The position numbers and the translations under genes were made by a program. Of a DNA stretch of 35,248 nt, positions 1,988 to 32,992 are shown one piece after another. Within the stretch, counting starts at the first letter, position 1. The number at the start of each line of letters is the position of its first letter. This DNA is from a virus (Duplodnaviria; Caudoviricetes), in IMG/VR virus record IMGVR_UViG_3300044606_000228, positions 1-35,248 of that record, one strand, 5' to 3'. The notes under the pieces were generated by a model, which saw nothing but the letters and a program-made list of their open reading frames with translations, did no database searches and had not been told where the DNA came from.

Positions 1988-3961
1988 TTAAGCTCCTTTT
2001 ATTTTAAGACGCCATCCGGCAATTTTACAGCTGACCTGGTAACCTGTATAGCTGGCTGATAAAGTAAGCCTGAGCGTTCTGTTTGTGCCATTATTAATCC
2101 ATGACAGGGAAGGCTGATTTAACGAAGGATCTGATATTATCCCGGTTCTTGTAATTGCCTGGGCATCTGTAAATATGCTCCCTGCAACATTGCCGGTATA
2201 AGCTGCATAATTATATACGCCTGCAAGATTATAAGCCCCTGTAGTTATGGTAATATTACAATTGACAATACATCCATCATATTCGTTTGCGTCAACTTTA
2301 ATAATATCATAGGTGACAGAAGAGCTGCTTGTTGTTACAGAGTAATCAACATATCCCGCGTCTCTTGCAGTCAGGTTTGGCAGAGGTTTTCCGTTATAAA
2401 AATTATCGCTGGTTTTTTGCGGCAGGTCATAACCAATATCCCATATATCACTGAAGGAACCGACGATATTGTTATTATCAAAAATAACTGAGCTGCCGAC
2501 GTTCGTATAAAAAACGAGAGGTGAAGTTCCGTTTATTTGGTTATTATGAATTGATATAAGGCTCGGCTGATTTATTCCACCTATATGAATCACGCCATCA
2601 CCCGGGAAGTTTATCCCGGCATCTATAATGGTATTGTCATGTATATTTATAGCATCAGGCGCGTAAATTCCGTCCCAGTTTGTAAATATTAATATATGCG
2701 CCCTGCTGTATGTTACATTGCATTTACGGATTAGATTGTCATGCACTACAAATGTTCCCGCCGATAACGGGACACCATTGCCGAAAGAACCAATGAATAT
2801 AGCACACGCATCAGCTCCTGAGCTGAAATTATTCACCCCGGCAGCCGTACACTCTGCATTATACCAGGCAGCATCATTTTCAATTGTATTGTCTGCAATA
2901 ATCCAGTCTTTGACATGCTTTAGCCACAAGGTATCTACAACAGAAGGGTCATCAGGGTCACTGCCCGCCTCGCTGACAGCATATATTCCGCTATTACCAA
3001 AGCCCTTTACGTGACATCCGGTTACTTTACCTGCAACACCGCCGTGCACATCAATTCCTTTTCTTTTATTATACCAGGCTTTCACACCTGATATTAAAAA
3101 TCCTTCGTTGTCAATAGCCATACCGGCTCTGTGATAGAGAGTTATACCATATCCATTTACAGGCAAGGTCAACCCGTTATATGAATATTCGCCCCCGGTT
3201 ATAATTCCACCTTTCACATTTTCAACTATCAGGCCTGCATAAAGGTTGTTATTCATTTTGCAATTTTCAACGGCAAGGTAATCTGCTTGTTTGACTGTAA
3301 CCCCGCCGAACGGAGCACCGGTGACTTCAACTCCTTCTAAAAAAACATTACGGCAATTTTTAACCAGCAGGCCATTCAGATAATTTACAGAGCCGTTGTT
3401 TGTGGCCGCTATTACAGCATGTTTGATTAAGACATCACGACCGTTTAGCAGTTCTATTGCTGCCTCCTGAATCTCAATATCATTAACTTCAACTACAGCT
3501 GTAGTAATAATCTTAGCTCCCCCTGCAAAATCAATAAAAAGATCTTTATCAGCCAGGTCTATACTGATTTTATTAGCTGTAGTATAAGGCCTGGTAAATA
3601 TTAATGTTCTGCCTGAATCCCTTGCCATCATAAGAGCTGTAGTAATTGCTGCTGTCCAGTCTGTTACTATGCCGGTACCTGTATACATCTCCGGGTATAT
3701 TATATCCCGGTTTATCATCTTCTGAAGATTTTCCAGGCGGATGTTTTTCCAATCCATACGGGTACCTTCTGCCGATATCTGCCCGGCCGGGAGCAGGTAA
3801 TTTTTATCATACCTGGTTAGCGAGTCGGTATCGGTTAGTTTTACGCCCTGTCCGAGCAAGTACGCAGTAGGCAGTAAGCAGCAGGCAAGTAAAACAAAAA
3901 CAAATCCTACCCCCCTGCGGGGTACTCCCTTTGGTGAAGGGAGACTGATTAAATTTTTCAT
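1988..3961 (-). CDS. Right-handed beta-helix tail spike / putative depolymerase with signal peptide
   Basis: Repeating G-I-x-V...N-x-I beta-helix pattern; position in the fibre region. Confidence 0.75.
   Translation of the reverse strand: MKNLISLPSPKGVPRRGVGFVFVLLACCLLPTAYLLGQGVKLTDTDSLTRYDKNYLLPAGQISAEGTRMDWKNIRLENLQKMINRDIIYPEMYTGTGIVTDWTAAITTALMMARDSGRTLIFTRPYTTANKISIDLADKDLFIDFAGGAKIITTAVVEVNDIEIQEAAIELLNGRDVLIKHAVIAATNNGSVNYLNGLLVKNCRNVFLEGVEVTGAPFGGVTVKQADYLAVENCKMNNNLYAGLIVENVKGGIITGGEYSYNGLTLPVNGYGITLYHRAGMAIDNEGFLISGVKAWYNKRKGIDVHGGVAGKVTGCHVKGFGNSGIYAVSEAGSDPDDPSVVDTLWLKHVKDWIIADNTIENDAAWYNAECTAAGVNNFSSGADACAIFIGSFGNGVPLSAGTFVVHDNLIRKCNVTYSRAHILIFTNWDGIYAPDAINIHDNTIIDAGINFPGDGVIHIGGINQPSLISIHNNQINGTSPLVFYTNVGSSVIFDNNNIVGSFSDIWDIGYDLPQKTSDNFYNGKPLPNLTARDAGYVDYSVTTSSSSVTYDIIKVDANEYDGCIVNCNITITTGAYNLAGVYNYAAYTGNVAGSIFTDAQAITRTGIISDPSLNQPSLSWINNGTNRTLRLTLSASYTGYQVSCKIAGWRLKIKGA
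3856..3891. repeat. Heptamer array (GCAGTAG-like), in-frame in the spike signal peptide
   Basis: gcaagtac gcagtag gcagtaa gcagcag gcaagta; encodes LACCLLPTAYLL. Confidence 0.6.
3907..3946 (-). repeat. Family E double-hairpin repeat, in-frame
   Basis: Reverse strand agtctcccttcaccaaagggagtaccccgcaggggggtag; resembles 21236 and 31309; encodes SLPSPKGVPRRGVG. Confidence 0.65.
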
Positions 3962-4902
3962 AAGAGTCCTCCTAATAATGCGTTTCCATCACCGTCAAGT
4001 ATTGGAATATATTGTGTATCTGTTAGAGCTGATGCTCCTTCAAAATCTATCTGCTTAAACCTGTCAAGTCCGCGGAATCTTAATATTACATTTTTATGCG
4101 CCTGGTGAAATGGCAGCTGAGCCATATCTAAGCTCTCTTCATCCAGTTCGCAGTTAAAGTAATTATACGGCCTGTCACTCCGGGGGTATAGCCTGAATGA
4201 TGTATTTCTCAGCTGATATAATTTCTGAACATACTTCAGCATTTCCTTTTCTGCATACCTGCTGTAATCTAATTGTGCAGCATAATAAAAGCCCTTAAGC
4301 TCTCTTGTTATCCGGCCTGTTGTAAATAATTTTTTCGACGGCCCGAATTCAGGTAAATAAGTTTCTGTAAGCTGCTGGCAGAAAGGCAAATCAATGAAGT
4401 AGCTGCCTATCTGTATGCGCGGAGCTCCGGGCAAATCAAGCCTCCCGTTAAGCTTCGCCCTGTTACCTTTCAGCTCATAAACAACCTTTTCAACTTTAAA
4501 CCTGTAGTTATATATAAATGATGCCGGTGATAAAGTAAGGTTAAAGCTTCCCGGGGAGAGCAGTATCTTATATCCTTTATTAGCAGTGATACCGGCGCCG
4601 GTTAATAAATAATTTCCGGTAGTGACAGATATCCTTTTGCCAAGATTTAATAAAGCATTTACACCCTGCAGGCTGTAATCAGCTTTATCAGCATGTAATA
4701 AAGAATCTTTTAATAATAATATATCGCTGCCGGTAAGAGTGAATGAAGCCGGATCAACATCTATTCCCCAGCCGCGTGTAATACTGATATCTGAGGCTGA
4801 ATATGTAAATTCCGCTGCTGAAGTTGTAAGAGTATAAGCCTGTAAAGCCTTTCCTCCCTTATCTCCGTAAGGCTCTGAACCATATAACAATGAACCGTAC
4901 AT
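3958..4902 (-). CDS. Tail protein; C-terminal domain paralogous to 6308..6967
   Basis: Shared IDLP.CQ / KKLF.TG / GFYY.A.LDYS.YA.KEM / AQLPFHQ.HK motifs. Confidence 0.7.
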   Translation of the reverse strand: MYGSLLYGSEPYGDKGGKALQAYTLTTSAAEFTYSASDISITRGWGIDVDPASFTLTGSDILLLKDSLLHADKADYSLQGVNALLNLGKRISVTTGNYLLTGAGITANKGYKILLSPGSFNLTLSPASFIYNYRFKVEKVVYELKGNRAKLNGRLDLPGAPRIQIGSYFIDLPFCQQLTETYLPEFGPSKKLFTTGRITRELKGFYYAAQLDYSRYAEKEMLKYVQKLYQLRNTSFRLYPRSDRPYNYFNCELDEESLDMAQLPFHQAHKNVILRFRGLDRFKQIDFEGASALTDTQYIPILDGDGNALLGGLL

Positions 4903-5723: not shown

Positions 5724-5741
5724 AATATCCTTTGATTTTTA

Positions 5742-5769
5742 GTTGGGGCGAAAGATATTTCGCCCTTAC
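5742..5769 (-). repeat. Family A REP-like palindrome
   Basis: gttggggcgaaagatatttcgcccttac; contains the TAA stop of 5766..6173. Confidence 0.9.
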
Positions 5770-6173
5770 TGCAATGTTATTACTCCGTTTGTACCATCAA
5801 AATCTATTGTAAAAGTCTCCCCGGCTCCCAGCGTTATTGATGAGCCATAATCATACCAGCCAATTAACTCATCATTCATTGCCGTATCATTATAAATGAT
5901 AATATACCGGAAAGGCCCTACTGCTCCTGATGCAGTTAGTACCAGGTCAGCCAAAACAAGCTTATACACGCCGCCTGTTTGCGCTGATGATGTTCTTGTT
6001 AAATTGCGGGTTGAGCAGTTTGTATAATCAATCTCAGTAATATCAGTCAGCATTGAATTACCGGCAGAGGGCGACGTATTTGTAAGTGCAATTTTAAGCT
6101 GGTCAGATCCAAGATTATGAACCTTCTCTGCCAGCGCCTCCACGAATGAATTAAACTTATTAAATGTTGCCAT
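5766..6173 (-). CDS. Conserved phage tail-associated protein
   Basis: MATFNKFNSFVEALAEKVHNLGSDQLKIALTN...LIGWYDYGSSITL..GETFTIDF, a recurrent tail-region family. Confidence 0.75.
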   Translation of the reverse strand: MATFNKFNSFVEALAEKVHNLGSDQLKIALTNTSPSAGNSMLTDITEIDYTNCSTRNLTRTSSAQTGGVYKLVLADLVLTASGAVGPFRYIIIYNDTAMNDELIGWYDYGSSITLGAGETFTIDFDGTNGVITLQ

Positions 6174-6188: not shown

Positions 6189-6226
6189 ACCCCTTGTAAA
6201 GGGGTCAGCCGTAAGGCTGGGGGATT
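6189..6226 (+). repeat. Family D double-hairpin repeat
   Basis: accccttgtaaaggggt-cagccgtaaggctg-ggggatt; close to the 14727 copy. Confidence 0.85.
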
Positions 6227-6242: not shown

Positions 6243-6280
6243 ACCCTCTCCTTAGCAAGGAGAGGGCAGGGTGAGGTCAC
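6243..6280 (+). repeat. Family C repeat
   Basis: accctctccttagcaaggagagggcagggtgaggtcac; differs from the 29143 copy only in the loop. Confidence 0.9.
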
Positions 6281-10651: not shown

Positions 10652-10700
10652 TTGGCACTCTCCGTTATAATGTTAATACCTTACATTTTGCGTTCTGACA

Positions 10701-10739
10701 ACCTCACCCCGGCCCTCTCCTTATATCAAGGAGAGGGGG
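10701..10739 (-). repeat. Family C repeat
   Basis: acctcaccccggccctctccttatatcaaggagagggg, reverse orientation, just after the tube gene stop. Confidence 0.85.
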
Positions 10740-10748
10740 AAAGGATGA

Positions 10749-11314: not shown

Positions 11315-11342
11315 TCCCCCTTAGAAAAGGGGGCTGGGGGAT
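11315..11342 (+). repeat. Family D repeat (short form)
   Basis: tcccccttagaaaagggggctgggggat. Confidence 0.75.
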
Positions 11343-11348
11343 GTTCCC

Positions 11349-11585: not shown

Positions 11586-11589
11586 TTGC

Positions 11590-12354: not shown

Positions 12355-12396
12355 GTCCCCCCTCGATGGAAGGGGGTGGCAAAGCCAGGGGATTCC
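12355..12396 (+). repeat. Family D double-hairpin repeat
   Basis: gtcccccctcgatggaaggggg-tggcaaagcca-ggggattcc. Confidence 0.85.
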
Positions 12397-13052: not shown

Positions 13053-13080
13053 GTTGGGGCGAAAGATTTTTCGCCCCTAA
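13053..13080 (-). repeat. Family A REP-like palindrome
   Basis: gttggggcgaaagatttttcgcccctaa; contains the TAG stop of 13077..13610. Confidence 0.9.
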
Positions 13081-13610
13081 TATGGCCATCTTTTGAATCT
13101 ATCCTCCAACGCCCATGCGGTATGATATCCATTTATTGGGCTTCCTTCCGGTGCATTTTCCGGCAGCCCTATTATAACGTACCTATATTGCCTTGCTATC
13201 TCGGAAAAATTTTCATCCTTACTATATAGCGTGCTAACTTCAAGAGAATCATTTATCGTTTTTAACGTTGACCAGGTACCCGCCGCATATTCCTGCAGCA
13301 CAATTTTAAGTTTTATAGAATCGCCTGAAGCTTTCATATAAAATGTATGGTTTGAATCATACTGCGCCGGGTAAGAGAAAGACCTGGTATAAATTGTATC
13401 TGTATTTTTCAGATACCCTGATGCCGTGAAGCTTGCAGTACCAACAGATGTTGTATAGAAGCTTCCCGAATCACTAACCGCTGTCTGTGCCTTAACAGGC
13501 GGAAATAAAAAAACAGCCACGAAGAACAGGGCAAAAATTATATTGCCCGTACGGGCGAAAAATTTTTCGCCCCTTTTTCCGGAAGAAAATAGACCCAATA
13601 AAAATTTCAT
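13077..13610 (-). CDS. Hypothetical beta-rich protein with signal peptide, downstream of the capsid gene
   Basis: IIFALFFVAVFLFPPVKA-Q; possible head decoration protein. Confidence 0.7.
   Translation of the reverse strand: MKFLLGLFSSGKRGEKFFARTGNIIFALFFVAVFLFPPVKAQTAVSDSGSFYTTSVGTASFTASGYLKNTDTIYTRSFSYPAQYDSNHTFYMKASGDSIKLKIVLQEYAAGTWSTLKTINDSLEVSTLYSKDENFSEIARQYRYVIIGLPENAPEGSPINGYHTAWALEDRFKRWPY
13549..13574 (+). repeat. Family A palindrome, in-frame
   Basis: gtacgggcgaaaaatttttcgcccct; encodes RGEKFFART. Confidence 0.9.
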
Positions 13611-13703: not shown

Positions 13704-13765
13704 GTCCCCCTTTAATAAAGCCTGCCTGTCCGGTAGGCAGGGGGGTGGCGAAGCCAGGGGATTCC
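13704..13765 (+). repeat. Family D repeat containing a nested 21-bp family B element (13721..13741)
   Basis: gtccccctttaataaag[cctgcctgtccggtaggcagg]ggggtggcgaagccaggggattcc. Confidence 0.9.
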
Positions 13766-14726: not shown

Positions 14727-14766
14727 GCCCCTTCTTGAAGGGGCCAGCCGTAAGGCTGGGGGATTC
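14727..14766 (+). repeat. Family D double-hairpin repeat
   Basis: gccccttcttgaaggggc-cagccgtaaggctg-ggggattc. Confidence 0.85.
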
Positions 14767-15887: not shown

Positions 15888-15910
15888 TTTGCCCTCAACG
15901 AGGGCAGGTT

Positions 15911-15930
15911 AATCAGTTTAATCAGCGGTC
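15911..15930 (+). repeat. Family G AATC 9-bp-period array (short)
   Basis: aatcagttt aatcagcggtc. Confidence 0.55.
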
Positions 15931-16002: not shown

Positions 16003-16031
16003 GCACGGGCGAAAGATTTTTTCGCCCCAAC
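16003..16031 (+). repeat. Family A palindrome
   Basis: gcacgggcgaaagattttttcgccccaac in the divergent intergenic region. Confidence 0.9.
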
Positions 16032-16138: not shown

Positions 16139-16166
16139 GTACGGGCGAAAAATTTTTCGCCCCAAC
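16139..16166 (+). repeat. Family A palindrome
   Basis: gtacgggcgaaaaatttttcgccccaac. Confidence 0.9.
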
Positions 16167-16187: not shown

Positions 16188-16700
16188 ATGAGCAACAAAC
16201 CCGGCAGGCGTAAAAGATATGACAGTACATTAAAAGCTGAATGCAGAGTGATGTTCGTTGAGCATGAGCAGAGCTATCAGAAAATATCTGACTACTACGA
16301 CGGCTCACCTTCAGCTCAGTGCATACAGCAGTGGGCAACAAAGAAGGATGCACGTACCGGCAAAAGCTGGGCTGACGAACGCAATGAAAAAGCAGACGGT
16401 AAGTATCTGGCATTATCTCCGCAGGCCCAGGCAAGTAAAGTGCTTGAAAGAATTAATTTCCTGCTTGCTGATGACGTTGAGAACTGGGATCCAAAGCAGG
16501 CTGATGCGTTAGCCAAGACTCAGAAAGTTCTGGAGAAAATAGTTGATAAAAAATTCCAGGTACCTATGATGTACGAGCTGCTGAAGAAGCTTATAGAATT
16601 TCTTAAGCTGCATTACTCCGACCAGGTTACAGCCGAGCTGCTTAATGCTATACGTCATTTTAAAAACGAGCTTCGTAAAAAACTGGAGCTTGGTATATAA
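16188..16700 (+). CDS. Putative terminase small subunit (N-terminal HTH)
   Basis: Overlaps the TerL start (TAATG); HTH-like SYQKIS..SAQCIQQW..W.DER; start revised from 16137, which lies at a repeat. Confidence 0.7.
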   Translation: MSNKPGRRKRYDSTLKAECRVMFVEHEQSYQKISDYYDGSPSAQCIQQWATKKDARTGKSWADERNEKADGKYLALSPQAQASKVLERINFLLADDVENWDPKQADALAKTQKVLEKIVDKKFQVPMMYELLKKLIEFLKLHYSDQVTAELLNAIRHFKNELRKKLELGI

Positions 16701-19373: not shown

Positions 19374-19391
19374 TCTCCCCTTGAGGGGAGT
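19372..19391 (+). repeat. Family E, first hairpin only
   Basis: agtctccccttgaggggagt overlapping the portal stop. Confidence 0.7.
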
Positions 19392-19499
19392 CCATTGCAA
19401 TGTGCTAAATTCAGAAATTGTGTTTTAACGCATACAGCATTAAAAATGCCTTGACAATACAAATGCCCGGATTCCGGGGCAGGCTCTCGTATAGAGCCC

Positions 19500-19565: not shown

Positions 19566-19626
19566 AATCAGCTTAATCAAAAAAATCATGTTTTTTAATC
19601 AGCGTAAATCCGGGTAATCAGTGGTC
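19566..19626 (+). repeat. Family G AATC array
   Basis: AATC at 19566, 19575, 19584, 19597, 19607, 19616; ends aatcagtggtc. Confidence 0.7.
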
Positions 19627-20079
19627 GAAGAAATAGTACAACAAATACTCTCGCTATTCCGCAACCAGGAAATGATGCAGAAGCTTGCCCTTGCCGCTGA
19701 GTTCAAAATTAAGAAGCGGACTCAGCAGGGTATCGCCGTAGAAGGTACAAGCTTCGGGCAATACAGTCCCGGGTATGCAAAGAAAAGGACAAAGGCAGGG
19801 CTGCCGATACATCCAATCACCCTAACCTTTGACGACATCACCGGTATGCTTCAGCAGATAACAGACGAAGTAAGCAGCGACTATAAATCAGTTGAGATAT
19901 TTATACAGAAGCCGGAGAAAGAATTAATTATGCAGTACCTGTCAATCATGGGAGCAGGCCGTAACAGGAAGATATTTCACTTCTGGGATATCAGCGAGCA
20001 GGAAGAAAAAGAACTTGCAGAAATTGTTGATGAAGAACTACTAAAAAATTTCAGTTTAATAAAGGGGAGTGTATTGTAG
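19621..20079 (+). CDS. Virion morphogenesis / tail completion protein (Mu gpG-like)
   Basis: IKKRTQQG..G..F..YSPGYAKKR..L..TG.M..I pattern; start uncertain. Confidence 0.65.
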   Translation: MVEEIVQQILSLFRNQEMMQKLALAAEFKIKKRTQQGIAVEGTSFGQYSPGYAKKRTKAGLPIHPITLTFDDITGMLQQITDEVSSDYKSVEIFIQKPEKELIMQYLSIMGAGRNRKIFHFWDISEQEEKELAEIVDEELLKNFSLIKGSVL

Positions 20080-20107
20080 ATAGGGGTTTACGCAAAGCCC
20101 GTCTACA
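20075..20107. repeat. GTAG-type hairpin (family F)
   Basis: tgtagataggggtttacgcaaagcccgtctaca; contains the TAG stop of the upstream gene. Confidence 0.55.
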
Positions 20108-20155
20108 TCCCCCTGCCCCCTTCAAAGCCTGCCTGTCCGGCAGGCAGGGGGGACT
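20107..20155 (-). repeat. Family D repeat with nested family B element (20128..20148)
   Basis: atccccctgcccccttcaaag[cctgcctgtccggcaggcagg]ggggact. Confidence 0.88.
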
Positions 20156-20170: not shown

Positions 20171-20584
20171 ATGTCTACAGTAACTAAAGACTATATCAAA
20201 CAATATTTCCCTCTCTGGGATAAATTTTTCCTTGATGCTGAAGGCGATGCATCAGAAACAATCCTGCAAGCCGAGCTTGACCAGGCAGAAATACACCTGC
20301 AGGAGTATATTATATTCCCTGAACCAATAACTGACCAGGTAAAGCGCATGGTACTTATTATTACCAGGTACTTCGGCTTCATGCGTACACAGGGAGATGT
20401 TGAATTTAAAGTAAAGCCTTTCATTGTTAAAGAATATGAAGCACTTATAGAACGACTTGAGCAGTTTAAAGCAGGAGAAATATCTCTGCTCCCCTCCACC
20501 TTACTAAGGGGAGGGGCCGGGGGTGAGGTTAATGCAAAGCCCAGGATATTTGACGAATGGTTTAACGATCCTTATTCAGATTAG
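20171..20584 (+). CDS. Head-tail adaptor (DUF1320 / Mu gp36-like)
   Basis: A..HLQEY..P....VKR...I.RY..YE.LI.RLE.FKAGEISL pattern; AGGAG SD. Confidence 0.7.
   Translation: MSTVTKDYIKQYFPLWDKFFLDAEGDASETILQAELDQAEIHLQEYIIFPEPITDQVKRMVLIITRYFGFMRTQGDVEFKVKPFIVKEYEALIERLEQFKAGEISLLPSTLLRGGAGGEVNAKPRIFDEWFNDPYSD
20490..20529 (+). repeat. Family C repeat, in-frame
   Basis: tcccctccaccttactaaggggaggggccgggggtgaggt; encodes PSTLLRGGAGGEV. Confidence 0.85.
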
Positions 20585-20592: not shown

Positions 20593-21042
20593 ATGTACAA
20601 CGACATATACCAGGCACAGCGTGCCTTAGTAAGCCATCTCAAAACAGGCAATGTAGGGGCTTACAATTGTAAGCACATTAAAGAATACGCAGGAGAGCTG
20701 GGCGATGTTAACAAGCTGCGCGACATCATGCCATCAGCCGCATTGGTGCGGTTGATGGAAGGCCCGGCAGCAGGTGAGACTCCCCGGGATCACAGGTTTT
20801 ATATTATTATCTTAACCAGGTCAGACAGCTACGATAAAAAAAGCAACCGTAACAATAACCTTCAGCTTGCATCTGATATTGGTAAGTACCTTGATGATAA
20901 CCCCGCCTGGCAATTTACTGATGATGATGAAGAAACAGTTGAGTATATACTTGACCGTGAGCGCCTCATCAGCAGGATCTTATTCCAGGACAATTCGTAC
21001 ACCTGCATCTACCTTGAAGCGATGATAAAGATTTTAATTTAG
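20593..21042 (+). CDS. Neck / tail terminator protein (Mu gp37-like)
   Basis: IKEYAGEL...PSAALV pattern; follows the gp36-like gene. Confidence 0.6.
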   Translation: MYNDIYQAQRALVSHLKTGNVGAYNCKHIKEYAGELGDVNKLRDIMPSAALVRLMEGPAAGETPRDHRFYIIILTRSDSYDKKSNRNNNLQLASDIGKYLDDNPAWQFTDDDEETVEYILDRERLISRILFQDNSYTCIYLEAMIKILI

Positions 21043-21066
21043 GGGCGAAACATCTTTCGCCCTTAC
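21040..21066 (-). repeat. Family A palindrome at the convergence point
   Basis: taggggcgaaacatctttcgcccttac; contains the TAG stop of 20593..21042. Confidence 0.88.
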
Positions 21067-21133: not shown

Positions 21134-21697
21134 TCAGTGAGTATGCTTCCTATCCATATACTCCTTGTACGCCCGCGGATCATTCTGCAATAGCTCAGCT
21201 TCAAACTTAGCCTCTTTTATCCTGCGTTCTTCAGAAGTCTCCTCTTGAGGGGAGTGCCCGCAGGGCGAGGGGTGTTGGGGGGGTGTAGACGCCTTATCAT
21301 TTCCGTGCCCTTTTTTAGTAAACTCCGAAAAGTCAAAACCCCCTATCTTCACATTAGCCTGTGTTTCCCTTGCCTTAGCCTGTGCCTCAGCCTTCTCTTT
21401 TTTAATATGCTCTTTCTGGTATTCTCCCTTTAGTATACCTCTGACATAAGAGAGCTTCATCCTTTCTGTCTCAGCGCATGCCTCTACAAATGCATCAAAC
21501 ACTTTTTGATATCCATATTCCTTAACAAGCCTCTCTGCAAACATTCTTTGACCCATGTTAAGAAGAATCATATCAGTCTTAACACTTTTCCATAAATCAA
21601 ACAAAGCAGCTATCCTGTCACTGCCGGGATTTTGAAGATCCGCCCCGCATACGGGGCAGGTAGGTTTAGGAGGGGCGGGTATCTTTTTTAAGTTCAT
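21134..21697 (-). CDS. DnaD/DnaB-C-like replication protein
   Basis: LVKEYGY..V..A..EA...KLSYVRGILK matches the YxxxIL motif; N-terminal CPVCG. Confidence 0.5.
   Translation of the reverse strand: MNLKKIPAPPKPTCPVCGADLQNPGSDRIAALFDLWKSVKTDMILLNMGQRMFAERLVKEYGYQKVFDAFVEACAETERMKLSYVRGILKGEYQKEHIKKEKAEAQAKARETQANVKIGGFDFSEFTKKGHGNDKASTPPQHPSPCGHSPQEETSEERRIKEAKFEAELLQNDPRAYKEYMDRKHTH
21236..21275 (+). repeat. Family E double-hairpin repeat, in-frame
   Basis: agtctcctcttgaggggagt-gcccgcagggc-gaggggtgt; encodes HPSPCGHSPQEET. Confidence 0.9.
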
Positions 21698-22601: not shown

Positions 22602-23017
22602 TATTGCCTCATGGGAAATTTTTTCGATGCTTTAATTAATTTGTCAATAAATTTCTGACTACTGCCAGCCTCTATTTCATCTTGTATGAGATTGTTCCAG
22701 TTCGAATATTTCCAGTATCTTACTCTTTTATTTTCTCTTTCTTCTCTTATTTCATAATCATGCATCAACCTGGAGGCTATATCTATGCTGTTATTCCCTA
22801 TATAACCTTTCGCTATAAGAGATCTTGTTGGCCATGCGTGAACGTTTACGATACAGATAATCTGAGATTTATTATAAAAGACAACATTTATTTTCATCCT
22901 ATAAATCTTATTCAAGATGTTTAGCCATGTTGGCCTTTTCCCCAAAAACAAATCCAATTGACTGACTGCCTGCCTGTCCGGCAGGCAGGCTGCCGACTGC
23001 GTACTGCATACTGGCAT
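22601..23017 (-). CDS. Hypothetical protein with repeat-derived N-terminus
   Basis: Fills the operon; the first ~19 codons come from heptamer and family B repeats. Confidence 0.55.
   Translation of the reverse strand: MPVCSTQSAACLPDRQAVSQLDLFLGKRPTWLNILNKIYRMKINVVFYNKSQIICIVNVHAWPTRSLIAKGYIGNNSIDIASRLMHDYEIREERENKRVRYWKYSNWNNLIQDEIEAGSSQKFIDKLIKASKKFPMRQ
22961..23016. repeat. Heptamer array with nested family B element (22969..22989)
   Basis: actgact g[cctgcctgtccggcaggcagg]ctgccg actgcgt actgcat actggca. Confidence 0.85.
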
Positions 23018-23744: not shown

Positions 23745-23783
23745 AATCAGTGTAATCACATTAATCAGCTGAATCAGCGGTTC
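23745..23783 (+). repeat. Family G AATC array
   Basis: AATC at 23745, 23754, 23763, 23772 (exact 9-bp period); ends aatcagcggttc. Confidence 0.75.
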
Positions 23784-23955
23784 TGACTTCTTCTCTTGGC
23801 TCATACAGAATATCATTATCCTGCTCCGGATGTTTTTCTGTATGGTCAAACTCTCCGTCTAATATTTCCTGGGGGATGGTTTTTCCATCTTCCCAGAAAG
23901 CAGCGCATTTGTTTACACCCAGAAAGTGCTTACAGTTAATACATTGGTTAGTCAT
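23761..23955 (-). CDS. Small Cys/His protein, candidate immunity partner of the MuF fusion
   Basis: CINCKH..C.AF..IP.EI..G..DH...D.DILYE; overlaps the MuF stop. Confidence 0.6.
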   Translation of the reverse strand: MTNQCINCKHFLGVNKCAAFWEDGKTIPQEILDGEFDHTEKHPEQDNDILYEPREEVRTADSAD

Positions 23956-26673: not shown

Positions 26674-26700
26674 GTACGGGCGAAAGATTTTTCGCCCCTA
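26674..26700 (+). repeat. Family A palindrome
   Basis: gtacgggcgaaagatttttcgccccta; contains the TAG stop of the ATPase gene. Confidence 0.9.
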
Positions 26701-27684
26701 TGATACTTTCTTAAATAAATTTTGCTGTTCCTGCCTGCCTGTCCGGCAGGCAGGTTTCCCATTCACAGCACTTAACAAAAGCTCTCTTATCTGCTTTATC
26801 TTCTGCTCATCTTTTATCCCGCTGTTAATAGCAGTGTAAACAGTTGAATTAGGTATACCGGTTTTCTTTTCAATATCTCTGGTACTCATTCCGCTGGCAT
26901 CATATAGCTCCTTAAGGGTAGGATTAACAACATCAGTATCAATCTGTTTATAACCGACTTTCTTTGCATCTTTCATTTTATCTCTTACGTACTGGATCAT
27001 CTGAAGAGGCTGCTTATTAACAAGAGCAATAGTCCGGCGTGCCGGGGCTGAAATAGCTTCACCAAATACAAGTCTGAGGAAAGCAACTCGTTCCTCAAAG
27101 GTCATCCATCCGCTTTCTTCATCAAGAGATACTTTACAGGTTCTCCAGCTGACTTCCTTACGCTTGCTTACCTTCTCCATCATCTCCCACTGTCCGATTA
27201 AAACAACGGAGAACAAAGGCCATACACCAGCAAAACGGGCTTCTCTTAAAGTCTTAAGCGCTTTGAATGTATGCTTATTAAGCAGGTGAGCATCTTCGAT
27301 AACTATACATATGTTTGTTCCTTTTTCAACATGCTCTTTACCAACAATACGGACAAACTGGCGGCTCCTGGCTTCCAGGTCACGCTTTGGCCCTTCCGCT
27401 GACAGCTCATATATACAGGCATTTATAATACTGCTTATAGTACACTTCTCAACATCAAGGTTAACAACCCGGACAAACTTGTTTCCATTTTTCAGATACT
27501 GTTCTGCAGCTTCAAACAAAAATGTTTTTCCGCTGCCAAATTCACCCGGTATAAGAAGCATCTGGTTATTAACTATGGCATCAACAATATCATCCCTGAA
27601 GTCGATAAAAGTTTTATTGTGGTACAGGCCCAAAGAACTCAGGCCGAAATAATTAAGAAGCGATTTGTGAATAAGATTTATCAT
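26698..27684 (-). CDS. Transposition AAA+ ATPase (MuB/ExeA-like) with C-terminal HTH
   Basis: Walker A GEFGSGKT, Walker B IVIEDAH, VLIGQ; MSTRDIEKKTGIPNSTVY HTH. Confidence 0.88.
   Translation of the reverse strand: MINLIHKSLLNYFGLSSLGLYHNKTFIDFRDDIVDAIVNNQMLLIPGEFGSGKTFLFEAAEQYLKNGNKFVRVVNLDVEKCTISSIINACIYELSAEGPKRDLEARSRQFVRIVGKEHVEKGTNICIVIEDAHLLNKHTFKALKTLREARFAGVWPLFSVVLIGQWEMMEKVSKRKEVSWRTCKVSLDEESGWMTFEERVAFLRLVFGEAISAPARRTIALVNKQPLQMIQYVRDKMKDAKKVGYKQIDTDVVNPTLKELYDASGMSTRDIEKKTGIPNSTVYTAINSGIKDEQKIKQIRELLLSAVNGKPACRTGRQEQQNLFKKVS
26734..26754. repeat. Family B 21-bp palindrome, in-frame
   Basis: cctgcctgtccggcaggcagg; adds PACRTGR to the ATPase tail. Confidence 0.9.
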
Positions 27685-27914: not shown

Positions 27915-28552
27915 TAGTCTACCTCAAGAGAAGAGAAATTAAGATCTACAGTTTCCCACTTATCCTTTATTGATGGCCTTCTTTGCAGCCTTAAATATTG
28001 CCTCTTACCGACAATAATTTCAGCCTCATTAAGCAGTTCCATCGCTTCCTGCCATTCTGTATCATTTATTTCATACTGCTTTAATGCTCTCAGCTCAGTT
28101 ATATTAACATACCCTTCTTTATTGGTCTTAAAGAGTTCATCAACTACTGTCTTAAGGTATGGATGAGCCCCTTCTCCCCAGCGGGCAAAACAGCTTTTTA
28201 TTTTTGCTTCAGCTATCTGCCTTTTATCATCAAGCTGAACTATGTCAGCTGATGAGATAATAACTTTTTCAGTGTTGCTGTAGTTAGTCAGGGTAAGATT
28301 ATTTAAGTCACCTATATCGGTCTTATGAGCTTTAGCCAGATAGTTTTTATAAGTGTCTGTTTTGGCCATTACCTTGCCTTTAACTCTCACAAGTTTCCCC
28401 TGCATATCATCAACCATCTTGAAAATGTCACTGACTATCTTATCCTTTTTAAGATGATCTTTTCTAATCATCTCAACAGGGACTTCTTTCCCGCGGCTGT
28501 TAATCATCTTAATGCCGCTTAATTCTTTTTTTACTCTTTTCTTCTTAGCCAT
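27914..28552 (-). CDS. DUF3164 family protein of transposable phages
   Basis: NLTLTNYS..K.I...D...LD....IA..KI..C..W and L..Y.I.D.EWQEAM..L.EA....K.Y; start revised to MAKKKR. Confidence 0.8.
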   Translation of the reverse strand: MAKKKRVKKELSGIKMINSRGKEVPVEMIRKDHLKKDKIVSDIFKMVDDMQGKLVRVKGKVMAKTDTYKNYLAKAHKTDIGDLNNLTLTNYSNTEKVIISSADIVQLDDKRQIAEAKIKSCFARWGEGAHPYLKTVVDELFKTNKEGYVNITELRALKQYEINDTEWQEAMELLNEAEIIVGKRQYLRLQRRPSIKDKWETVDLNFSSLEVD

Positions 28553-28636
28553 TACAGACCTCTGATTCAACTGATTTTTTTGATTCCTCTGGAATGATTG
28601 CTGACTCAGCTTCTATTTCAGTTTGAAGCAAATACT
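28545..28636. repeat. Imperfect direct repeat copy 1 (contains a family G array)
   Basis: Aligns with 28834..28931; GATT at 28564, 28573, 28582. Confidence 0.8.
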
Positions 28637-28841
28637 CTCTCTCTTTTATTCCAATTATTGTAAGACTTTTTATTACCACCTGGTTTGTGCCTTCAAACTG
28701 GCATAATTCCTTTCTTAACTTCTGCAAGTCATTATCAGAAGTCATTTCATCCGCTTCAACAGAGGAGTCTGTTGAACACACAATTTTTTCTCCATCCATC
28801 ACATCGTAAAAAATATGATACAAGCATTTCCTCCTATCCAT
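28545..28841 (-). CDS. Hypothetical protein (start revised to MDRRKC)
   Basis: ATG overlaps the end of the upstream gene; C-terminus duplicated from 28834..29115. Confidence 0.6.
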   Translation of the reverse strand: MDRRKCLYHIFYDVMDGEKIVCSTDSSVEADEMTSDNDLQKLRKELCQFEGTNQVVIKSLTIIGIKEREYLLQTEIEAESAIIPEESKKSVESEVCNG

Positions 28842-28931
28842 CACAGACCTCTGATTTAACTGATTCTTTTGATTCCGCTGATTCATGAACAATTCCTGAT
28901 TCCCTTTCAATTTCAGTTTCAAGTAAATACT
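28834..28931. repeat. Imperfect direct repeat copy 2 (contains a family G array)
   Basis: GATT at 28853, 28862, 28871, 28880. Confidence 0.8.
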
Positions 28932-29115
28932 TTCGCAGGCCGCATAACTCCCTGTATTTACTTCCGAGTGCATTGTATTCAGCCTCAGAGACTGAAAGAT
29001 CTATAGCTCCCTTATAAATCTTCTGTGCATGAAGATCCACAGCTACATAATCGTTTTCCGCTTCCGGGAAAAGCTGCCTGCTTTCTTCAAGTAACTTTTT
29101 TTGTACTTCGTCCAT
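28834..29115 (-). CDS. Hypothetical protein
   Basis: AGGAGG SD; first gene after the transposase. Confidence 0.7.
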   Translation of the reverse strand: MDEVQKKLLEESRQLFPEAENDYVAVDLHAQKIYKGAIDLSVSEAEYNALGSKYRELCGLRKYLLETEIERESGIVHESAESKESVKSEVCDG

Positions 29116-29142: not shown

Positions 29143-29180
29143 ACCCTCTCCTTACTAAGGAGAGGGCAGGGTGAGGTCAC
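29143..29180 (+). repeat. Family C repeat
   Basis: accctctccttactaaggagagggcagggtgaggtcac; contains the TGA stop of the transposase. Confidence 0.9.
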
Positions 29181-30784
29181 CCCACGGCCACTTGTTTATT
29201 TTTTACCCCGCTTATTACAGCATCAATATCAGCCCGCTTCAGCGTATCAACCAGCAGCGGATCAAATATCTCAGCGTAATCTGCGTAACTGGCATTCCTG
29301 CCAAACTGCTCTGCTATATATTTTTTAGCAGCAAACTCTGAAGCGAATACTTCAGGAACATTGTCTGCATAAACAGCAGTATCAAATTTGTTTTCTACTT
29401 CAATTTCTCTTTTCCGTACCGGCAGGTAACTAACCTGTCCCCCTTCGATGGAAGGGGGTGGATTTCCGCCTGCGGAAATCCGGGGGATTGACTGTTTAAC
29501 ATCATTCTCAATCTGCTGCCTGAATGTCGGAGCTTCACGATGTGAGAAATCGCCCAGGCTTACATACCCATCCACAGGAGGCATAATAACAGGCCTGCCC
29601 GGCTCTTCTATCAGCTCGGCGACAACTTCACCGTTAAGATTTATCCACGCGCTTACCTGCTTGCCCTGGAACTGGCGCGGTGCCTGGTACTTCTGATTTT
29701 TGATAGTGATACATAAATCATCTCCTACAAGCCTTGTATAAGGCCGTGTAAGAAGTTCTTTCATATCAACACTTATTATGCGCTGCTCACGTGCAGCAAT
29801 GGATGTTCTGTAAGCATGCCCGCGTGTTATAGATTTACGTTTACCCGGAACATTCCAGTCAAGAAGCTTTATATGAAACTCATGTGCAAGCTCGTTAAAG
29901 TCTGCCAGGTGAATTGTAAAGCCTTCCTTCCTGTTAACCAGCAGCGGAAGTTCAAACCTTCGCCATAGCAGCTTCCATGCGCTTTCTCTTTTTTGTATAC
30001 CTCTTTTTTTCAAAGGCGTGCTAAGCTCTGATTTTACATTCAATTTTTGCAGTAACATTTTAACGGTTTGATTTTTAATAAAAGCCCCGTTGTCTGTCTT
30101 AAGCACTTCAGGCAGGTAAATCATAGGATGCAGATCATCAACACGTGTATAAGCGAAGTTCAGAAAATCAATTCCGATTAATACAGATTCGCCCGTAGCT
30201 ACATAACATTGAGCAAGACTAACCCGGCTGTATGCATCTGTAACCCCGGCCCACCAGGTGCGAAGCATTGAATCATTTTCTTTATAAGCCAAATGCTTTG
30301 ATGTTGCCTTTAATAGGTAGTCACCTTTTACTTTATCGAACTTCCAGCACTGGAAATATTTACTACGCGAAAAATCTAATTGATGCTGCTGGTTAGCATA
30401 CCGGGCCTCCACCCTGACTATCACATCTTTGTCACGGAAGCCCAGCTCATTCATCCTTCTGTTAACGGTACTGACGGTGAGGAACTCCGCCTCTTTGTAC
30501 CCTTCGTTTATCAATATCTCGATACACAAATCAGTAGCAAGCTCACGGCCCGATAAACCCTGGTAACCGTACATCTTCATCTTAATAATTTTCATAATCA
30601 GAAAATTTTCAGGATCTACCTTATGCGGCCTTGCAACTGTTTTTTTCTTGCCATATGTTTTTGCAAGCTCTCTCATAATTGTAGCTTTACTGCAATTATA
30701 AACGTTCATATAATGCTCTATTACCCGCGTTTTAGCTCCGTGGGGAGCGGCACTCCAATTGTTATACATTTCAACTTTATCCAT
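29177..30784 (-). CDS. DDE transposase (MuA-like, integrase core)
   Basis: HQLDFS, VTDAYSR, KTDNGAF, KRESAW; N-terminal HTH; adjacent AAA ATPase. Confidence 0.88.
   Translation of the reverse strand: MDKVEMYNNWSAAPHGAKTRVIEHYMNVYNCSKATIMRELAKTYGKKKTVARPHKVDPENFLIMKIIKMKMYGYQGLSGRELATDLCIEILINEGYKEAEFLTVSTVNRRMNELGFRDKDVIVRVEARYANQQHQLDFSRSKYFQCWKFDKVKGDYLLKATSKHLAYKENDSMLRTWWAGVTDAYSRVSLAQCYVATGESVLIGIDFLNFAYTRVDDLHPMIYLPEVLKTDNGAFIKNQTVKMLLQKLNVKSELSTPLKKRGIQKRESAWKLLWRRFELPLLVNRKEGFTIHLADFNELAHEFHIKLLDWNVPGKRKSITRGHAYRTSIAAREQRIISVDMKELLTRPYTRLVGDDLCITIKNQKYQAPRQFQGKQVSAWINLNGEVVAELIEEPGRPVIMPPVDGYVSLGDFSHREAPTFRQQIENDVKQSIPRISAGGNPPPSIEGGQVSYLPVRKREIEVENKFDTAVYADNVPEVFASEFAAKKYIAEQFGRNASYADYAEIFDPLLVDTLKRADIDAVISGVKNKQVAVG
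29437..29489 (+). repeat. Family D double-hairpin repeat, in-frame
   Basis: gtcccccttcgatggaagggggt-ggatttccgcctgcggaaatcc-gggggatt; encodes IPRISAGGNPPPSIEGGQ. Confidence 0.88.
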
Positions 30785-30795
30785 TTTTGCCTTTC

Positions 30796-30820
30796 GTATG
30801 GGCGAAAAATCTTTCGCCCT
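30796..30820 (+). repeat. Family A palindrome
   Basis: gtatgggcgaaaaatctttcgccct, about 12 bp upstream of the transposase start. Confidence 0.85.
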
Positions 30821-30933
30821 GCCCTTACGCTGCCTGTGGTTTAGTTTTAGGAGTTCTTATGTTTACAACATTAGATTTACGCATATGCCCGCCATCAGTA
30901 GGAGCAGCAGCACAAGCGCCTTTCCATACAATA

Positions 30934-31545
30934 TCATCCCTTACAGTTAGCCCGCTTTTCAATTTTATTTCTTTGTAGCTTTTCATATAAATCCTTTAAT
31001 TGCCGGTTAGTCATATTATTTAATTCTCTATAAATGTCCCCCTTTTCTAAAGGGGGTGTCCCGGACGGGACAGGGGATTTCAGTGAGCACGCTAATACTT
31101 TCGTCATGCCAGTTATTACCTTCGTTGCCTGGTAATTCATCAGCATTTGAATAGCTCTAAGCTCCCCTGTTTGCCTGTATAAAAAACCACTAAGCCTCAT
31201 AGTATCCCAGTTAAGGAGTAATCTCAATATCTCAATTCTATCCGCCTGCTCATCAGTTAAATTTTTCTTAGTAATATCATTCCTTTCACCAGTCCCATAC
31301 ACTTTGACAGTCTCCCCTTTAAGGGGAGTGCCCGCAGGGCGAGGGGTGTATTGTTTTCTTGCAGCATCAACCCTTACAAGCGTTGAAAGCTTAGTAATAA
31401 AATCTCCTGCCTGGCCAAAGCTTAACTTTTTACTCGTAACAACTCCGTAACCGTCAAGCATCTCACGATACTCCTTATCATCAATACCCAGCGTAGTAAC
31501 AAGAGTATGAATCGCCTTTACCTGGTTACCATTAGCAAGCTTCAT
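30934..31545 (-). CDS. gemA: Regulatory protein GemA-like (Mu gp16 / DUF1018)
   Basis: QVKAIH.L...LGIDD.EYR.ML..YGV.TSK.LS..QA..FI..L; L...QATKVI.GM. Confidence 0.78.
   Translation of the reverse strand: MKLANGNQVKAIHTLVTTLGIDDKEYREMLDGYGVVTSKKLSFGQAGDFITKLSTLVRVDAARKQYTPRPAGTPLKGETVKVYGTGERNDITKKNLTDEQADRIEILRLLLNWDTMRLSGFLYRQTGELRAIQMLMNYQATKVITGMTKVLACSLKSPVPSGTPPLEKGDIYRELNNMTNRQLKDLYEKLQRNKIEKRANCKG
31036..31079 (+). repeat. Family D double-hairpin repeat, in-frame
   Basis: gtcccccttttctaaaggggg-tgtcccggacgggaca-ggggatt; encodes SPVPSGTPPLEKGD. Confidence 0.88.
31309..31349 (+). repeat. Family E double-hairpin repeat, in-frame
   Basis: agtctcccctttaaggggagt-gcccgcagggc-gaggggtgt; encodes TPRPAGTPLKGET. 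Confidence 0.9.
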
Positions 31546-31546
31546 C

Positions 31547-32653
31547 CTATGCCTCAGCCAGTATTTCGCTGTAATGATTGCTCAGTATGTTATGCACCTC
31601 ATCAATCTTTTGAATTGTGTTAATCAGGTCAGTCCTTAATCCTTGAGGATCTGAGAAAAGCACACCAGCCTTAACGATAGCCAGGTTAACCTCGTTAAGC
31701 AGCTTCTGTGCAATAGCAAGATGCTCAGCCTTATCTTTCAGCTTAGTAGCATTAGGCCCGTATATAGCAAGGTCAACTTTAAGATCATCAACTTTATTCT
31801 TATTATCATCGCGTTCCCGGGCAAGAGTTTTCCTCTCTTCTTTCAGCAGTTTATTTTCCTCAGTTAACTGGTTGACCTTAGCAGAATATTCCTTTTTGAA
31901 TGCTGCTATTTTTTTCTGAGCTTCTTTATCAGTCACATCAACGAGCGCCTGTATATCAAGAGTATCTCCTTCTGCATTTTTTATTTTGCCCTTTTTCATT
32001 AGTTCAGCCAGCTTATTATCTTCAAGTGTTGAAAGTTCATAAAGCTTAGAAATACTCAAGCCGGCAACATTTTCTATCTCTTCTTCATTTAGTCCACTCA
32101 AGTGGACTGCCCCATTTTCTATTGCTAATGGTTTATAATTGTCACCTGCCAATAACTTAGTAGCTGATTCATATTTTGTAGCGATAGCATAATATTTATA
32201 TGCCTGGCTTCTTCCCATTGGCAGCATCGTAGCAATATACTCTTCACGGCCCTGGCAGCCCAGCGCAAGATACAGGCGCTCATCAAACATTTTCTTTATG
32301 GCAGTAGCAGTAACAAAAGAACTCATTAGCACCTGCTGATGCACATAGGCTGCCATCCGTTGATTTTCGGGAGAGATTTCTACCCACTTTTTTTCTTCAT
32401 CATCATATACATTCAGAATGTGGGTTTCTTTTAAATCGGGTACTGACTTAGCAATTTCCTTTTTTGGCATAACAACCTCTTTTTTAATATTTAATTTTTC
32501 TTCAATCTCGTTTATTTCTCTATTTAAACTTTCAATCTCAATCTCTGAACCCTCACTATGCTTAAGCTTCAGTACTTCAACCCTGTTTTTGCAAAACGAT
32601 AACCTCATCTGTATCTTAATAACAGGATCTATATGTGTTAATCTTCTTATCAT
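31547..32653 (-). CDS. DUF3102-like HTH/coiled-coil protein; likely internal start at 32470
   Basis: EEYI..ML.MGRSQAYKYYAIA and LSISKLYEL motifs; GAGG before ATG 32470. Confidence 0.55.
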   Translation of the reverse strand: MIRRLTHIDPVIKIQMRLSFCKNRVEVLKLKHSEGSEIEIESLNREINEIEEKLNIKKEVVMPKKEIAKSVPDLKETHILNVYDDEEKKWVEISPENQRMAAYVHQQVLMSSFVTATAIKKMFDERLYLALGCQGREEYIATMLPMGRSQAYKYYAIATKYESATKLLAGDNYKPLAIENGAVHLSGLNEEEIENVAGLSISKLYELSTLEDNKLAELMKKGKIKNAEGDTLDIQALVDVTDKEAQKKIAAFKKEYSAKVNQLTEENKLLKEERKTLARERDDNKNKVDDLKVDLAIYGPNATKLKDKAEHLAIAQKLLNEVNLAIVKAGVLFSDPQGLRTDLINTIQKIDEVHNILSNHYSEILAEA

Positions 32654-32992
32654 CTATAACTCCTTATCTCCCCTTTGAGGGGTATGGGCGGGCAGACCTG
32701 CCTGACGAAGCCCAACTATGTCAGAGCACTTCGTTAGGTAAACTTTCGGCGTAGTCAGGGCCTGCCTGGTTATTCCAAATCTCAAAGCTACAGCCGTACC
32801 CGGCAGAAATTCTGATAAAAACTCTCTTGATACTTTTTCAACTTCCGAATCAACAGCCTTGCCCCGCTGCATACCTTTAGTAAGCCTCTTAACCTGTCTT
32901 AGCGAACATCCCAGGCGTGCTGCAATCTGCTTACACGTAAAGCCCTGCTTTTTCATTTCGATTACGGATTCACGGTTAATTAGTTTTGGCAT
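32654..32992 (-). CDS. HTH DNA-binding protein; C-terminus repeat-derived
   Basis: QGFTCKQIAARLGCSLRQVKR; second HTH-like VALRFGITRQAL. Confidence 0.7.
   Translation of the reverse strand: MPKLINRESVIEMKKQGFTCKQIAARLGCSLRQVKRLTKGMQRGKAVDSEVEKVSREFLSEFLPGTAVALRFGITRQALTTPKVYLTKCSDIVGLRQAGLPAHTPQRGDKEL
32667..32713. repeat. Degenerate family E/B composite
   Basis: tctcccctttgaggggt followed by gggcagacctgcctgacgaagccc. Confidence 0.4.

What the first reader, a model, noticed from the sequence alone, without database searches (positions are those of the whole stretch)
3856..32713. Phage genome saturated by at least seven families of tiny repeats with no visible mobiliser
Seen, counted by eye: A gggcgaaa-N-tttcgccc (8 copies), B cctgcctgtccggcaggcagg (4), C ccctctcctt-N-aaggagaggg..gggtgaggt (4), D ccccctt-N-aagggg plus second hairpin plus ggggatt (8), E tctcccctt..aggggagtgcccgcagggcgagggg (3 full, 2 partial), F GTAG hairpin (1), G AATC arrays (5) and heptamer arrays (2). 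That is about one element per kb. Known: REP/MITE-like elements are mainly described in bacterial chromosomes, some spread by RAYT HUH enzymes. No such gene is recognisable here. Inference: several unrelated micro-element systems are written into this genome in trans by host or phage enzymes and are tolerated in a compact phage. The phage may carry them between hosts.
Basis: partly seen in the sequence, partly recalled or inferred. Interest (0 to 1): 0.88.

Follow-up and report, generated by a model that had tools for sequence, protein, structure and literature searches.

The report
Mu-like phage littered with host micro-repeats
An intact-looking Mu-type phage carries 39 tiny repeats of five kinds, each kind matching repeats that sit beside a different small gene in bacterial chromosomes; the phage has none of those genes, so host proteins likely wrote the repeats into it while it lay in the host chromosome.

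Summary
All 37 repeats are real, plus two more: 39 in 35.2 kb, filling 17 of 21 intergenic gaps; 13 sit in frame in genes. The genome is an intact-looking Mu-like phage. The seven families reduce to five classes, each beside its own small gene in Ignavibacteria-class chromosomes: C/D/E with DUF559 (25 of 30 loci), heptamers with four-helix-bundle genes (24 of 30), G with GxxExxY (11 of 30), A with RAYT (2 of 16 A loci), B with GIY-YIG (1 of 30). The phage encodes none. Presence/absence is reciprocal: the closest relative (60-70% protein identity) is empty where the window is filled, and the reverse. Density is 7-10 times four chromosome samples, but the true host was not found and other phage records reach similar densities with fewer classes. 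Best reading: host REP-like repeats copied in trans and filtered by selection; RAYT and Ssn are the published precedents. The scan found most partner links, and REP-rich phages, before on other DNA. New here: five classes together in one phage, and a hint that these prophages hold more hairpins than their hosts.

The parts
3856..3903 (+). Heptamer array, in frame in the signal-peptide-like start of ORF 1988-3961
   Evidence: no orthologue found to test the empty site
3904..3944 (-). E-type double hairpin, in frame in the same N-terminus
5742..5769 (-). A hairpin; its GTAA tag holds the TAA stop of ORF 5766-6173
6190..6226 (+). D element, intergenic
6244..6277 (+). C element, intergenic
10700..10740 (-). 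C element, intergenic, reverse orientation
11315..11345 (+). D element, intergenic
12357..12394 (+). D element, intergenic
13053..13080 (-). A hairpin; overlaps the TAG stop of ORF 13077-13610
13549..13576 (+). A hairpin in frame in the signal-peptide-like start of ORF 13077-13610
   Evidence: 15-residue gap in the one orthologue found, L001
13705..13763 (+). D element whose stem is split by a B copy
   Evidence: removing B restores the hairpin
13721..13741 (+). B 21-mer nested in D
14728..14765 (+). D element, intergenic
15905..15930 (+). G (AATC) array, intergenic
16003..16031 (+). A hairpin between the divergent protease and terminase-region genes
16139..16166 (+). A hairpin upstream of the gene starting at 16188
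19375..19390 (+). E element, partial, 2 bases after the portal stop
19465..19490 (.).
   Evidence: seen; class not tested
19566..19625 (+). G (AATC) array, intergenic
20075..20105 (-). F: GTAG-tagged hairpin overlapping the TAG stop of ORF 19621-20079
20106..20155 (-). D-type element whose stem is split by a B copy
20128..20148 (+). B 21-mer nested in the D-type element
20490..20530 (+). C element in frame in ORF 20171-20584, replacing about 13 codons
   Evidence: unrelated peptide of nearly the same length in P0110 and P0111 and in 9 locus orthologues
21039..21066 (.). A hairpin overlapping the TAG stop of ORF 20593-21042
21238..21275 (+). E element in frame in ORF 21134-21697
   Evidence: 13-residue gap in both orthologues, L006 and L025
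22958..23012 (-). Heptamer array split by a B copy, intergenic
22969..22989 (+). B 21-mer nested in the heptamer array
23745..23790 (+). G (AATC) array overlapping the end of ORF 23761-23955
26674..26701 (+). A hairpin overlapping the TAG stop of the transposition ATPase gene
26734..26754 (+). B 21-mer in frame near the C-terminus of the transposition ATPase
   Evidence: not in 8 orthologues shown, whose tails vary in length
28555..28590 (-). G array in frame at the end of ORF 28545-28973; duplicated with the next
28845..28885 (-). G array in frame at the end of ORF 28834-29115
   Evidence: a like array at the same site in L001, not in L022 or L025
29144..29178 (+). C element at the transposase stop
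29439..29489 (+). D element in frame in the transposase C-terminal linker
   Evidence: its peptide is in none of 16 homologues
30796..30823 (+). A hairpin, intergenic
31038..31079 (+). D element in frame in GemA
   Evidence: empty in P0100, the closest homologue
31312..31349 (+). E element in frame in GemA
   Evidence: empty in P0100; other inserts at the same loop in L019, L022, L024
32668..32694 (+). E element, partial, in the C-terminal extension of ORF 32654-32992
   Evidence: most orthologues end before it
32695..32765 (-).
   Evidence: resemblance by eye
29177..30784 (-). Context: Mu-type transposase, intact frame
   Evidence: phrog_310, E 6.7e-18
26698..27684 (-). Context: transposition ATPase, intact frame
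   Evidence: phrog_296, E 7.1e-16

Best explanation
The 39 repeats are solo copies of five classes of REP-like micro-repeats that sit beside small genes in bacterial chromosomes, and host proteins likely wrote them into this Mu-like phage in trans. Shown: each class has its own partner gene (RAYT, DUF559, GxxExxY, four-helix bundle, GIY-YIG), the phage has none, and sites are filled or empty between related phages. Inferred: the partners cut or bind their repeat as folded single-stranded DNA, as published for RAYT and Ssn, and copies land while the phage sits in or replicates through the chromosome. Inferred: selection then keeps only copies in gene gaps, signal peptides, termini and tolerant loops. 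The four-helix-bundle protein has no known nuclease activity, so that link is the weakest mechanistically.
For: Partner specificity in Ignavibacteria-class genomes, 30 loci per gene, motif within 200 bp: C/D/E-type hairpin at 25 DUF559 loci against 0, 0 and 1 for the other three genes; heptamer arrays at 24 four-helix-bundle loci against 0, 2 and 0; G pattern at 11 GxxExxY loci against 0, 0 and 0; B at 1 GIY-YIG locus, inside a tRNA-like piece upstream of the gene (L251). An A-type hairpin begins at the stop codon of a RAYT-like ORF in L010 and lies upstream of one in L134 (NF047646, E 3.8e-11 and 2e-9, both partial and below the cut-off). No partner in the window; 1 partner gene in 169 viral loci. 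Reciprocal sites: transposase P0002 (70% identical, from a 35,098-bp contig) has a 40-residue insert with C-type peptides where the window and 15 others are empty; P0111, listed with a contig of the same length, lacks the window's C element. B lacks a target duplication at 32 of 34 sites (0-1 base) and its removal restores the D stem. Filter: 13 copies inside genes, none breaking a frame; 17 of 21 gaps filled, the repressor control gap empty.
Against: The host was not found (1 of 401 genomes held a related transposase, at 47%), so no genome with all five classes was seen; A was in 10 of 151 genomes with at most 5 copies and the 21-base B pattern in 1 of 101. The A and B links rest on 2 of 16 and 1 of 30 loci; none of 7 Y1 loci from five A-bearing genomes showed an A hairpin in the printed flanks. 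The C/D/E and G detectors were written after I had seen the flanks. No activity on these repeats is shown for DUF559, GxxExxY or four-helix-bundle proteins. No relative above 70% protein identity was available, so empty sites are seen in protein, not DNA, and timing is unknown.
Confidence: 0.7

Rival explanations
1. Plain host background: the phage sat for a long time in an unsampled, repeat-rich host and only mirrors its density. The origin is the same as in the best explanation, but nothing is special about the phage.
For: For the D pattern alone the densest of 251 genomes has 95 matches per Mb against 255 in the window, only about 2.7-fold, Poisson p about 0.03. Long contigs of assembled bins under-represent repeats. 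15 of 48 other viral loci reach 20 or more detector hits per 35 kb (loci chosen for holding a C or E copy).
Against: All classes together give 33 hits per 35 kb against 3.2-4.9 in four 200-kb chromosome samples, two of them from the D-richest genomes. In two prophage-host pairs of this phage family, GC-rich hairpins are about 3.4 times denser in the phage (4 in 20 kb against 15 in 260 kb, p 0.04; 12 in 34.5 kb against 20 in 197 kb, p 0.0014). The genes are intact, so it is not a decayed prophage.
Confidence: 0.35
2. Scars: whole repeat-gene-repeat cassettes inserted and the gene was later deleted, leaving one repeat behind; no copying of solo repeats is needed.
For: Partner genes are bracketed by inverted repeats like small transposons. 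Clusters and doublets occur (6190 with 6244; the P0002 insert). The C element at 20490 replaces about 13 codons instead of adding to them.
Against: Most window copies are single. No gene remnant was found. Only 1 of 169 viral loci holds a full cassette. B inserts as an exact 20-21-base unit inside other repeats.
Confidence: 0.15
3. Phage-made control elements: the hairpins are terminators, mRNA stabilisers or packaging and protein-binding sites that the phage keeps on purpose.
For: Many lie within 10 bases of a stop codon; several D, A and B copies match a loose terminator pattern (26 sites against a mean of 16.6 in shuffles); 26 of 33 oriented copies point one way (p 0.0013).
Against: Syntenic relatives L001-L006 lack A and B altogether and have few C/D/E or G copies; L022 carries a different REP family instead. 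Thirteen copies are inside genes. The same sequences occur in unrelated phages and chromosomes. No Rfam family matches. Later use of single copies as stop codons or terminators remains possible.
Confidence: 0.07

Closest known systems
GTAG-tagged REPs and REPtrons with RAYT (TnpA-REP) (Di Nocera 2013, PMC3733652; Corneloup 2021, PMC8266576)
   Same: A and F are short perfect or near-perfect hairpins with a GTAN tag; the tag supplies or overlaps a stop codon (4 of 8 A copies and F), as the paper reports for GTAG REPs; A lies next to RAYT-like genes; in-gene copies are known.
   Different: Here they are in a phage, mostly single, and share the genome with four non-RAYT classes. I did not see the figure of family consensus sequences, so A is not assigned to a numbered family.
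Ssn GIY-YIG single-strand nucleases with NTS/SRM (CGTC-type) hairpins (Chenal 2025, PMC11893778)
   Same: One small single-domain nuclease gene bracketed by its own hairpin, with solo copies spread elsewhere; the model I borrow for DUF559, GxxExxY and B's GIY-YIG.
   Different: The SRM pattern has no match in the window; the partners of C/D/E, G and the heptamers are other folds. The relative L022 does carry about ten TGTC-tagged copies.
Rickettsia palindromic elements and other in-gene MITEs (mentioned in PMC3733652; review PMC10969869, outline only)
   Same: Palindromic DNA read in frame inside unrelated proteins at tolerant sites.
   Different: These are 20-60 bases, several unrelated classes, without target duplications for B, and in a phage.
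23S rRNA intervening sequence with its four-helix-bundle ORF (Coxiella, PMC4990558)
   Same: Tandem heptamers lie upstream of the ORF there, as beside 24 of 30 four-helix-bundle genes here.
   Different: The window has gene-less heptamer arrays, and no rRNA.

Membership tests
GTAG REP (families A, F) | 20-40-base palindrome with a terminal GTAG-like tag | tested here: met
   GTAC, GTAT, GTAA, GCAC or TTAG tags on 20-21-base hairpins; F has GTAG
GTAG REP (families A, F) | Cognate RAYT gene flanked by the repeat | tested here: met
   L010 and L134, 2 of 16 A loci; partial ORFs below the NF047646 cut-off. Not tested for F.
GTAG REP (families A, F) | High copy number in the host chromosome | tested here: inconclusive
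   At most 5 copies in 151 and 201 sampled genomes; true host not found
REPIN | Mostly inverted doublets at fixed spacing | tested here: not met
   A copies are single; the one close pair (16003, 16139) is in direct orientation
Ssn/SRM (CGTC REP) | Match to the SRM degenerate motif | tested here: not met
   0 matches in the window
Ssn/SRM (CGTC REP) | Small GIY-YIG gene next to the repeat | tested here: inconclusive
   B at 1 of 30 GIY-YIG loci; whether that gene belongs to the Ssn subfamily cd10448 was not tested
Classical MITE | Target-site duplication | tested here: not met
   B: 24 of 34 sites none, 8 one base, one 3, one 6. Other classes need DNA of empty sites.
Classical MITE | Ends shared with an autonomous DDE insertion sequence | not tested
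   The partners found are small non-DDE genes; no search for insertion sequences with these ends was run
Repeat plus dedicated small nuclease (any class) | Protein binds or cuts its flanking repeat | not testable with these tools
   Published for RAYT and Ssn only
Mu-like transposable phage | DDE transposase, transposition ATPase, GemA, Mu-type portal and head genes | tested here: met

The most novel reading that the evidence does not exclude
Bacteria keep a guild of tiny single-domain proteins (RAYT, GIY-YIG, DUF559, GxxExxY, four-helix bundle), each copying its own 20-60-base repeat without a transposon, and Mu-type phages are preferred targets because replicative transposition exposes single-stranded DNA. 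The phage then works as a recording tape of the repeat systems of its past hosts and as the vehicle that keeps repeats such as B letter-identical across distant lineages.
Probability: 0.25. Interest if true: 0.8.

Novelty: new variant of a known kind. Interest (0 to 1): 0.52.

Why it matters
In Pseudomonas, mobile elements map to regions devoid of REPs (Loper 2012, PMC3390384). This phage is the opposite case, with five repeat classes in 35 kb and none of their genes. It points to three protein families (DUF559, GxxExxY, four-helix bundle) as candidate repeat-spreading factors; my searches found no paper stating that for DUF559 or GxxExxY. It gives ready substrates for a binding and cleavage test like those done for RAYT and Ssn. 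It also shows small repeats reshaping phage proteins in frame, with the same loops hit by different repeats in different phages. The interest is tempered because the single links were noted before in this scan and other phages also carry many copies.

Tried and rejected
Host search: related terminases in two Ignavibacteria-class bins only; transposase in 1 of 401 genomes at E <= 1e-30; cluster look-up gave no organism. DNA of the closest relative (P0002/P0111) was not returned by the viral or metagenome scans. Rfam: no match. Terminator origin rejected (see rivals). Decayed prophage rejected: core genes have intact frames. D-like hit at 17986 rejected as native terminase code. Orientation against gene strand in host samples was uninformative, 21 elements in all. 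B nests in hairpins more stable than 90% of local controls at only 9 of 34 sites, so hairpin targeting is a tendency, not a rule. Mu end-binding sites were not identified. The terminase found no match in five A-rich viral records, so those are other phage types.
Full report
What the window is. The record is one 35,248-base viral contig. It encodes a Mu-type transposase (phrog_310), transposition ATPase (phrog_296), GemA, DUF3164, a Mu portal, terminase, head protease, capsid, endolysin and a repressor-like gene. Core reading frames are intact. Syntenic relatives at about 50% terminase identity occur in four viral records and in two bins of the Ignavibacteria class. The host group is therefore likely in or near that class; the host itself was not found.

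Perfect GC-rich hairpins number 34 against 0-7 in 10 shuffles; family detectors give 33 hits against at most 3 in 30 shuffles. Genes cover 91% of the genome. Repeats fill 17 of the 21 gaps longer than 25 bases; the four empty gaps include the one beside the repressor. Thirteen repeats lie wholly inside genes and none breaks a frame (one gene was entered out of frame in that script, and its peptide is taken).

They are insertions. Of the 13 in-gene copies, 10 could be compared with orthologues and 3 had none. The A copy in ORF 13077-13610 faces a 15-residue gap in its one orthologue; the E copy in ORF 21134-21697 a 13-residue gap in both; the two GemA copies are absent from the closest homologue; the tail of ORF 32654-32992 is missing from most orthologues. 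The C copy in ORF 20171-20584 replaces about 13 codons relative to the two closest homologues. Against this, the G array at 28845 has a like array at the same site in L001, so at least one copy may be old. The pattern is reciprocal: transposase P0002 (70% identical) holds a 40-residue insert with C-type peptides at a site empty in the window and 15 other homologues, while the window's D peptide is in none of the 16. The same GemA loop holds B in L019 and other inserts in L022 and L024. These are protein-level comparisons; no close DNA relative was available.

Seven families are five classes. I took the best 30 loci (about one per genome) for each of four small gene families in 41-61 genomes of the class and scored the 200 bases on either side. 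C/D/E-type hairpins flank 25 of 30 DUF559 genes, typically inverted on both sides, against 0, 0 and 1 for the others. Heptamer arrays flank 24 of 30 four-helix-bundle genes against 0, 2 and 0. A strict AATC pattern marks 4 of 30 GxxExxY genes and a looser one 11 of 30, against none of the others. These detectors were written after seeing the flanks. B lies upstream of 1 of 30 GIY-YIG genes, inside a tRNA-like piece. An A-type hairpin starts at the stop codon of a RAYT-like ORF in L010 and lies upstream of another in L134, 2 of 16 A loci; seven Y1 loci from five A-bearing genomes showed no A in their printed flanks. F is placed with A by its GTAG tag only.

The writers are not in the phage. No partner family is found in the window. 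In 169 viral or phage loci (1.68 Mb, overlapping) only one partner gene appears, a heptamer-flanked four-helix-bundle gene. Phages thus carry the solo repeats and almost never the genes.

B is a precise module. It occurs letter for letter in 23 viral stretches of 42-68% GC and in frame in two host genes. At 32 of 34 distinct sites there is no duplication beyond one base. Three of the four window copies sit inside another repeat, and removing the one at 13721 restores a full D hairpin.

Is the density special? The window has 33 detector hits per 35.2 kb; 200-kb samples of G077, G141, G001 and G030 have 3.2-4.9, and related phage loci 8-9. For the D pattern alone the excess over the densest of 251 genomes is only about 2.7-fold. 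In two prophage-host pairs GC-rich hairpins are about 3.4 times denser in the phage (p 0.04 and 0.0014); this is uncorrected for gene density, the bins may be repeat-poor, and one phage contig may be misbinned. Heavy loading is not unique: A occurs in 35 other viral records, up to 12 copies in 28 kb; 15 of 48 loci picked for a C or E copy reach 20 or more hits per 35 kb, but none shows more than three of the five classes; L022 has about ten TGTC-tagged REPs in 17 kb. The window is an extreme of a common state.

Orientation. Of the C/D/E copies 14 point one way and 3 the other (p 0.013); over A, B, C, D, E and G it is 26 to 7 (p 0.0013, assigned by eye, A uncertain). In five other records with 4-12 A copies the printed tags all lie on one side. 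Most window genes are on one strand, so replication and transcription cannot be told apart here.

How it most likely works. Shown in print: RAYT processes its own single-stranded REP in vitro (PMC8266576, abstract), and Ssn nucleases cut near their own hairpins in single-stranded DNA and are flanked by them (PMC11893778, passages). Inferred: DUF559 and GxxExxY, both predicted nucleases, and B's GIY-YIG do the like for their repeats; the four-helix-bundle protein has no known catalytic activity and its role is open. From established Mu biology (my knowledge): such a phage is integrated in both lysogeny and lytic growth, so it is exposed to host enzymes throughout. Selection would remove disruptive copies, which fits the gaps, termini, signal peptides and loops seen, and A's tag serving as stop codon in 4 of 8 copies, as reported for GTAG REPs (PMC3733652, passages and the first quarter of Results).

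What is known. REPs, in-gene REPs, REPtrons and Ssn are described. In Pseudomonas, mobile elements map to REP-free regions (PMC3390384, passages), and RAYTs are rare on plasmids (PMC5581495, passages). Heptamers upstream of the intervening-sequence ORF are noted in Coxiella (PMC4990558, passages). PMC10969869 I saw as abstract and outline only. Searches for DUF559 or GxxExxY with repeats, and for REPs in phage genomes, listed no paper describing these links (listings only). The library lacks most subscription papers, and I read no supplements; the REP family figure and tables of PMC3733652 and the SRM tables of PMC11893778 could hold family A or related motifs. Earlier notes of this scan had already reported the DUF559, GxxExxY and B links and REP-rich phages on other DNA; none fitted all of the words for a phage holding these classes together.

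Verdict. Real, and correctly read as insertions written in trans. It is a new variant of REP-like micro-repeats with identifiable candidate partners, not seven orphan systems. The phage-as-sink and phage-as-carrier ideas remain open. Interest 0.52.

Noticed in passing
window 23948-25456: Mu F-like head protein with a long C-terminal extension holding an HELGH motif; weak Pfam ATLF hit below the cut-off. Looks like a MuF protein fused to a metallopeptidase-like domain; relatives match only the first 240 residues.
   Followed up: no
window 28538-28639 and 28827-28934: The ends of two neighbouring small genes are duplicated (77-87% alike), each with a G array ending in AGAGGT a few bases before the next start codon; the array may serve as a ribosome-binding site.
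   Followed up: partly
L022 (17 kb): A related Mu-like phage with about ten TGTC-tagged (SRM/CGTC-type) hairpins and ten heptamer hits, a different repeat set from the window.
   Followed up: partly
L233, L236, L237, L242, L243, L247, L249, L251, L252, L256, L259: Many small GIY-YIG genes lie just behind tRNA-like sequence and are followed by a partial repeat of it, some in tandem copies.
   Followed up: no
L140, L142, L143, L144, L146, L165, L166: DUF559 domains with their hairpins sit in open frames of 840-1270 residues, that is in frame inside large host proteins.
   Followed up: no
P0112, P0117, P0130 (GemA homologues) and P0007 (transposase): Further repeat-like peptides at other positions of the same proteins in other phages.
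   Followed up: partly
window 510-1985, 1988-3961, 216-500, 13077-13610: Several tail-region genes begin with signal-peptide-like sequences; two of them carry repeats inside that stretch.
   Followed up: no
window 31547-32653: The frame starts about 60 codons upstream of where orthologues start; possibly a small upstream gene fused to it.
   Followed up: no
L024 10522-13380: Five identical 31-base hairpins with the same upstream flank in a related phage locus.
   Followed up: no
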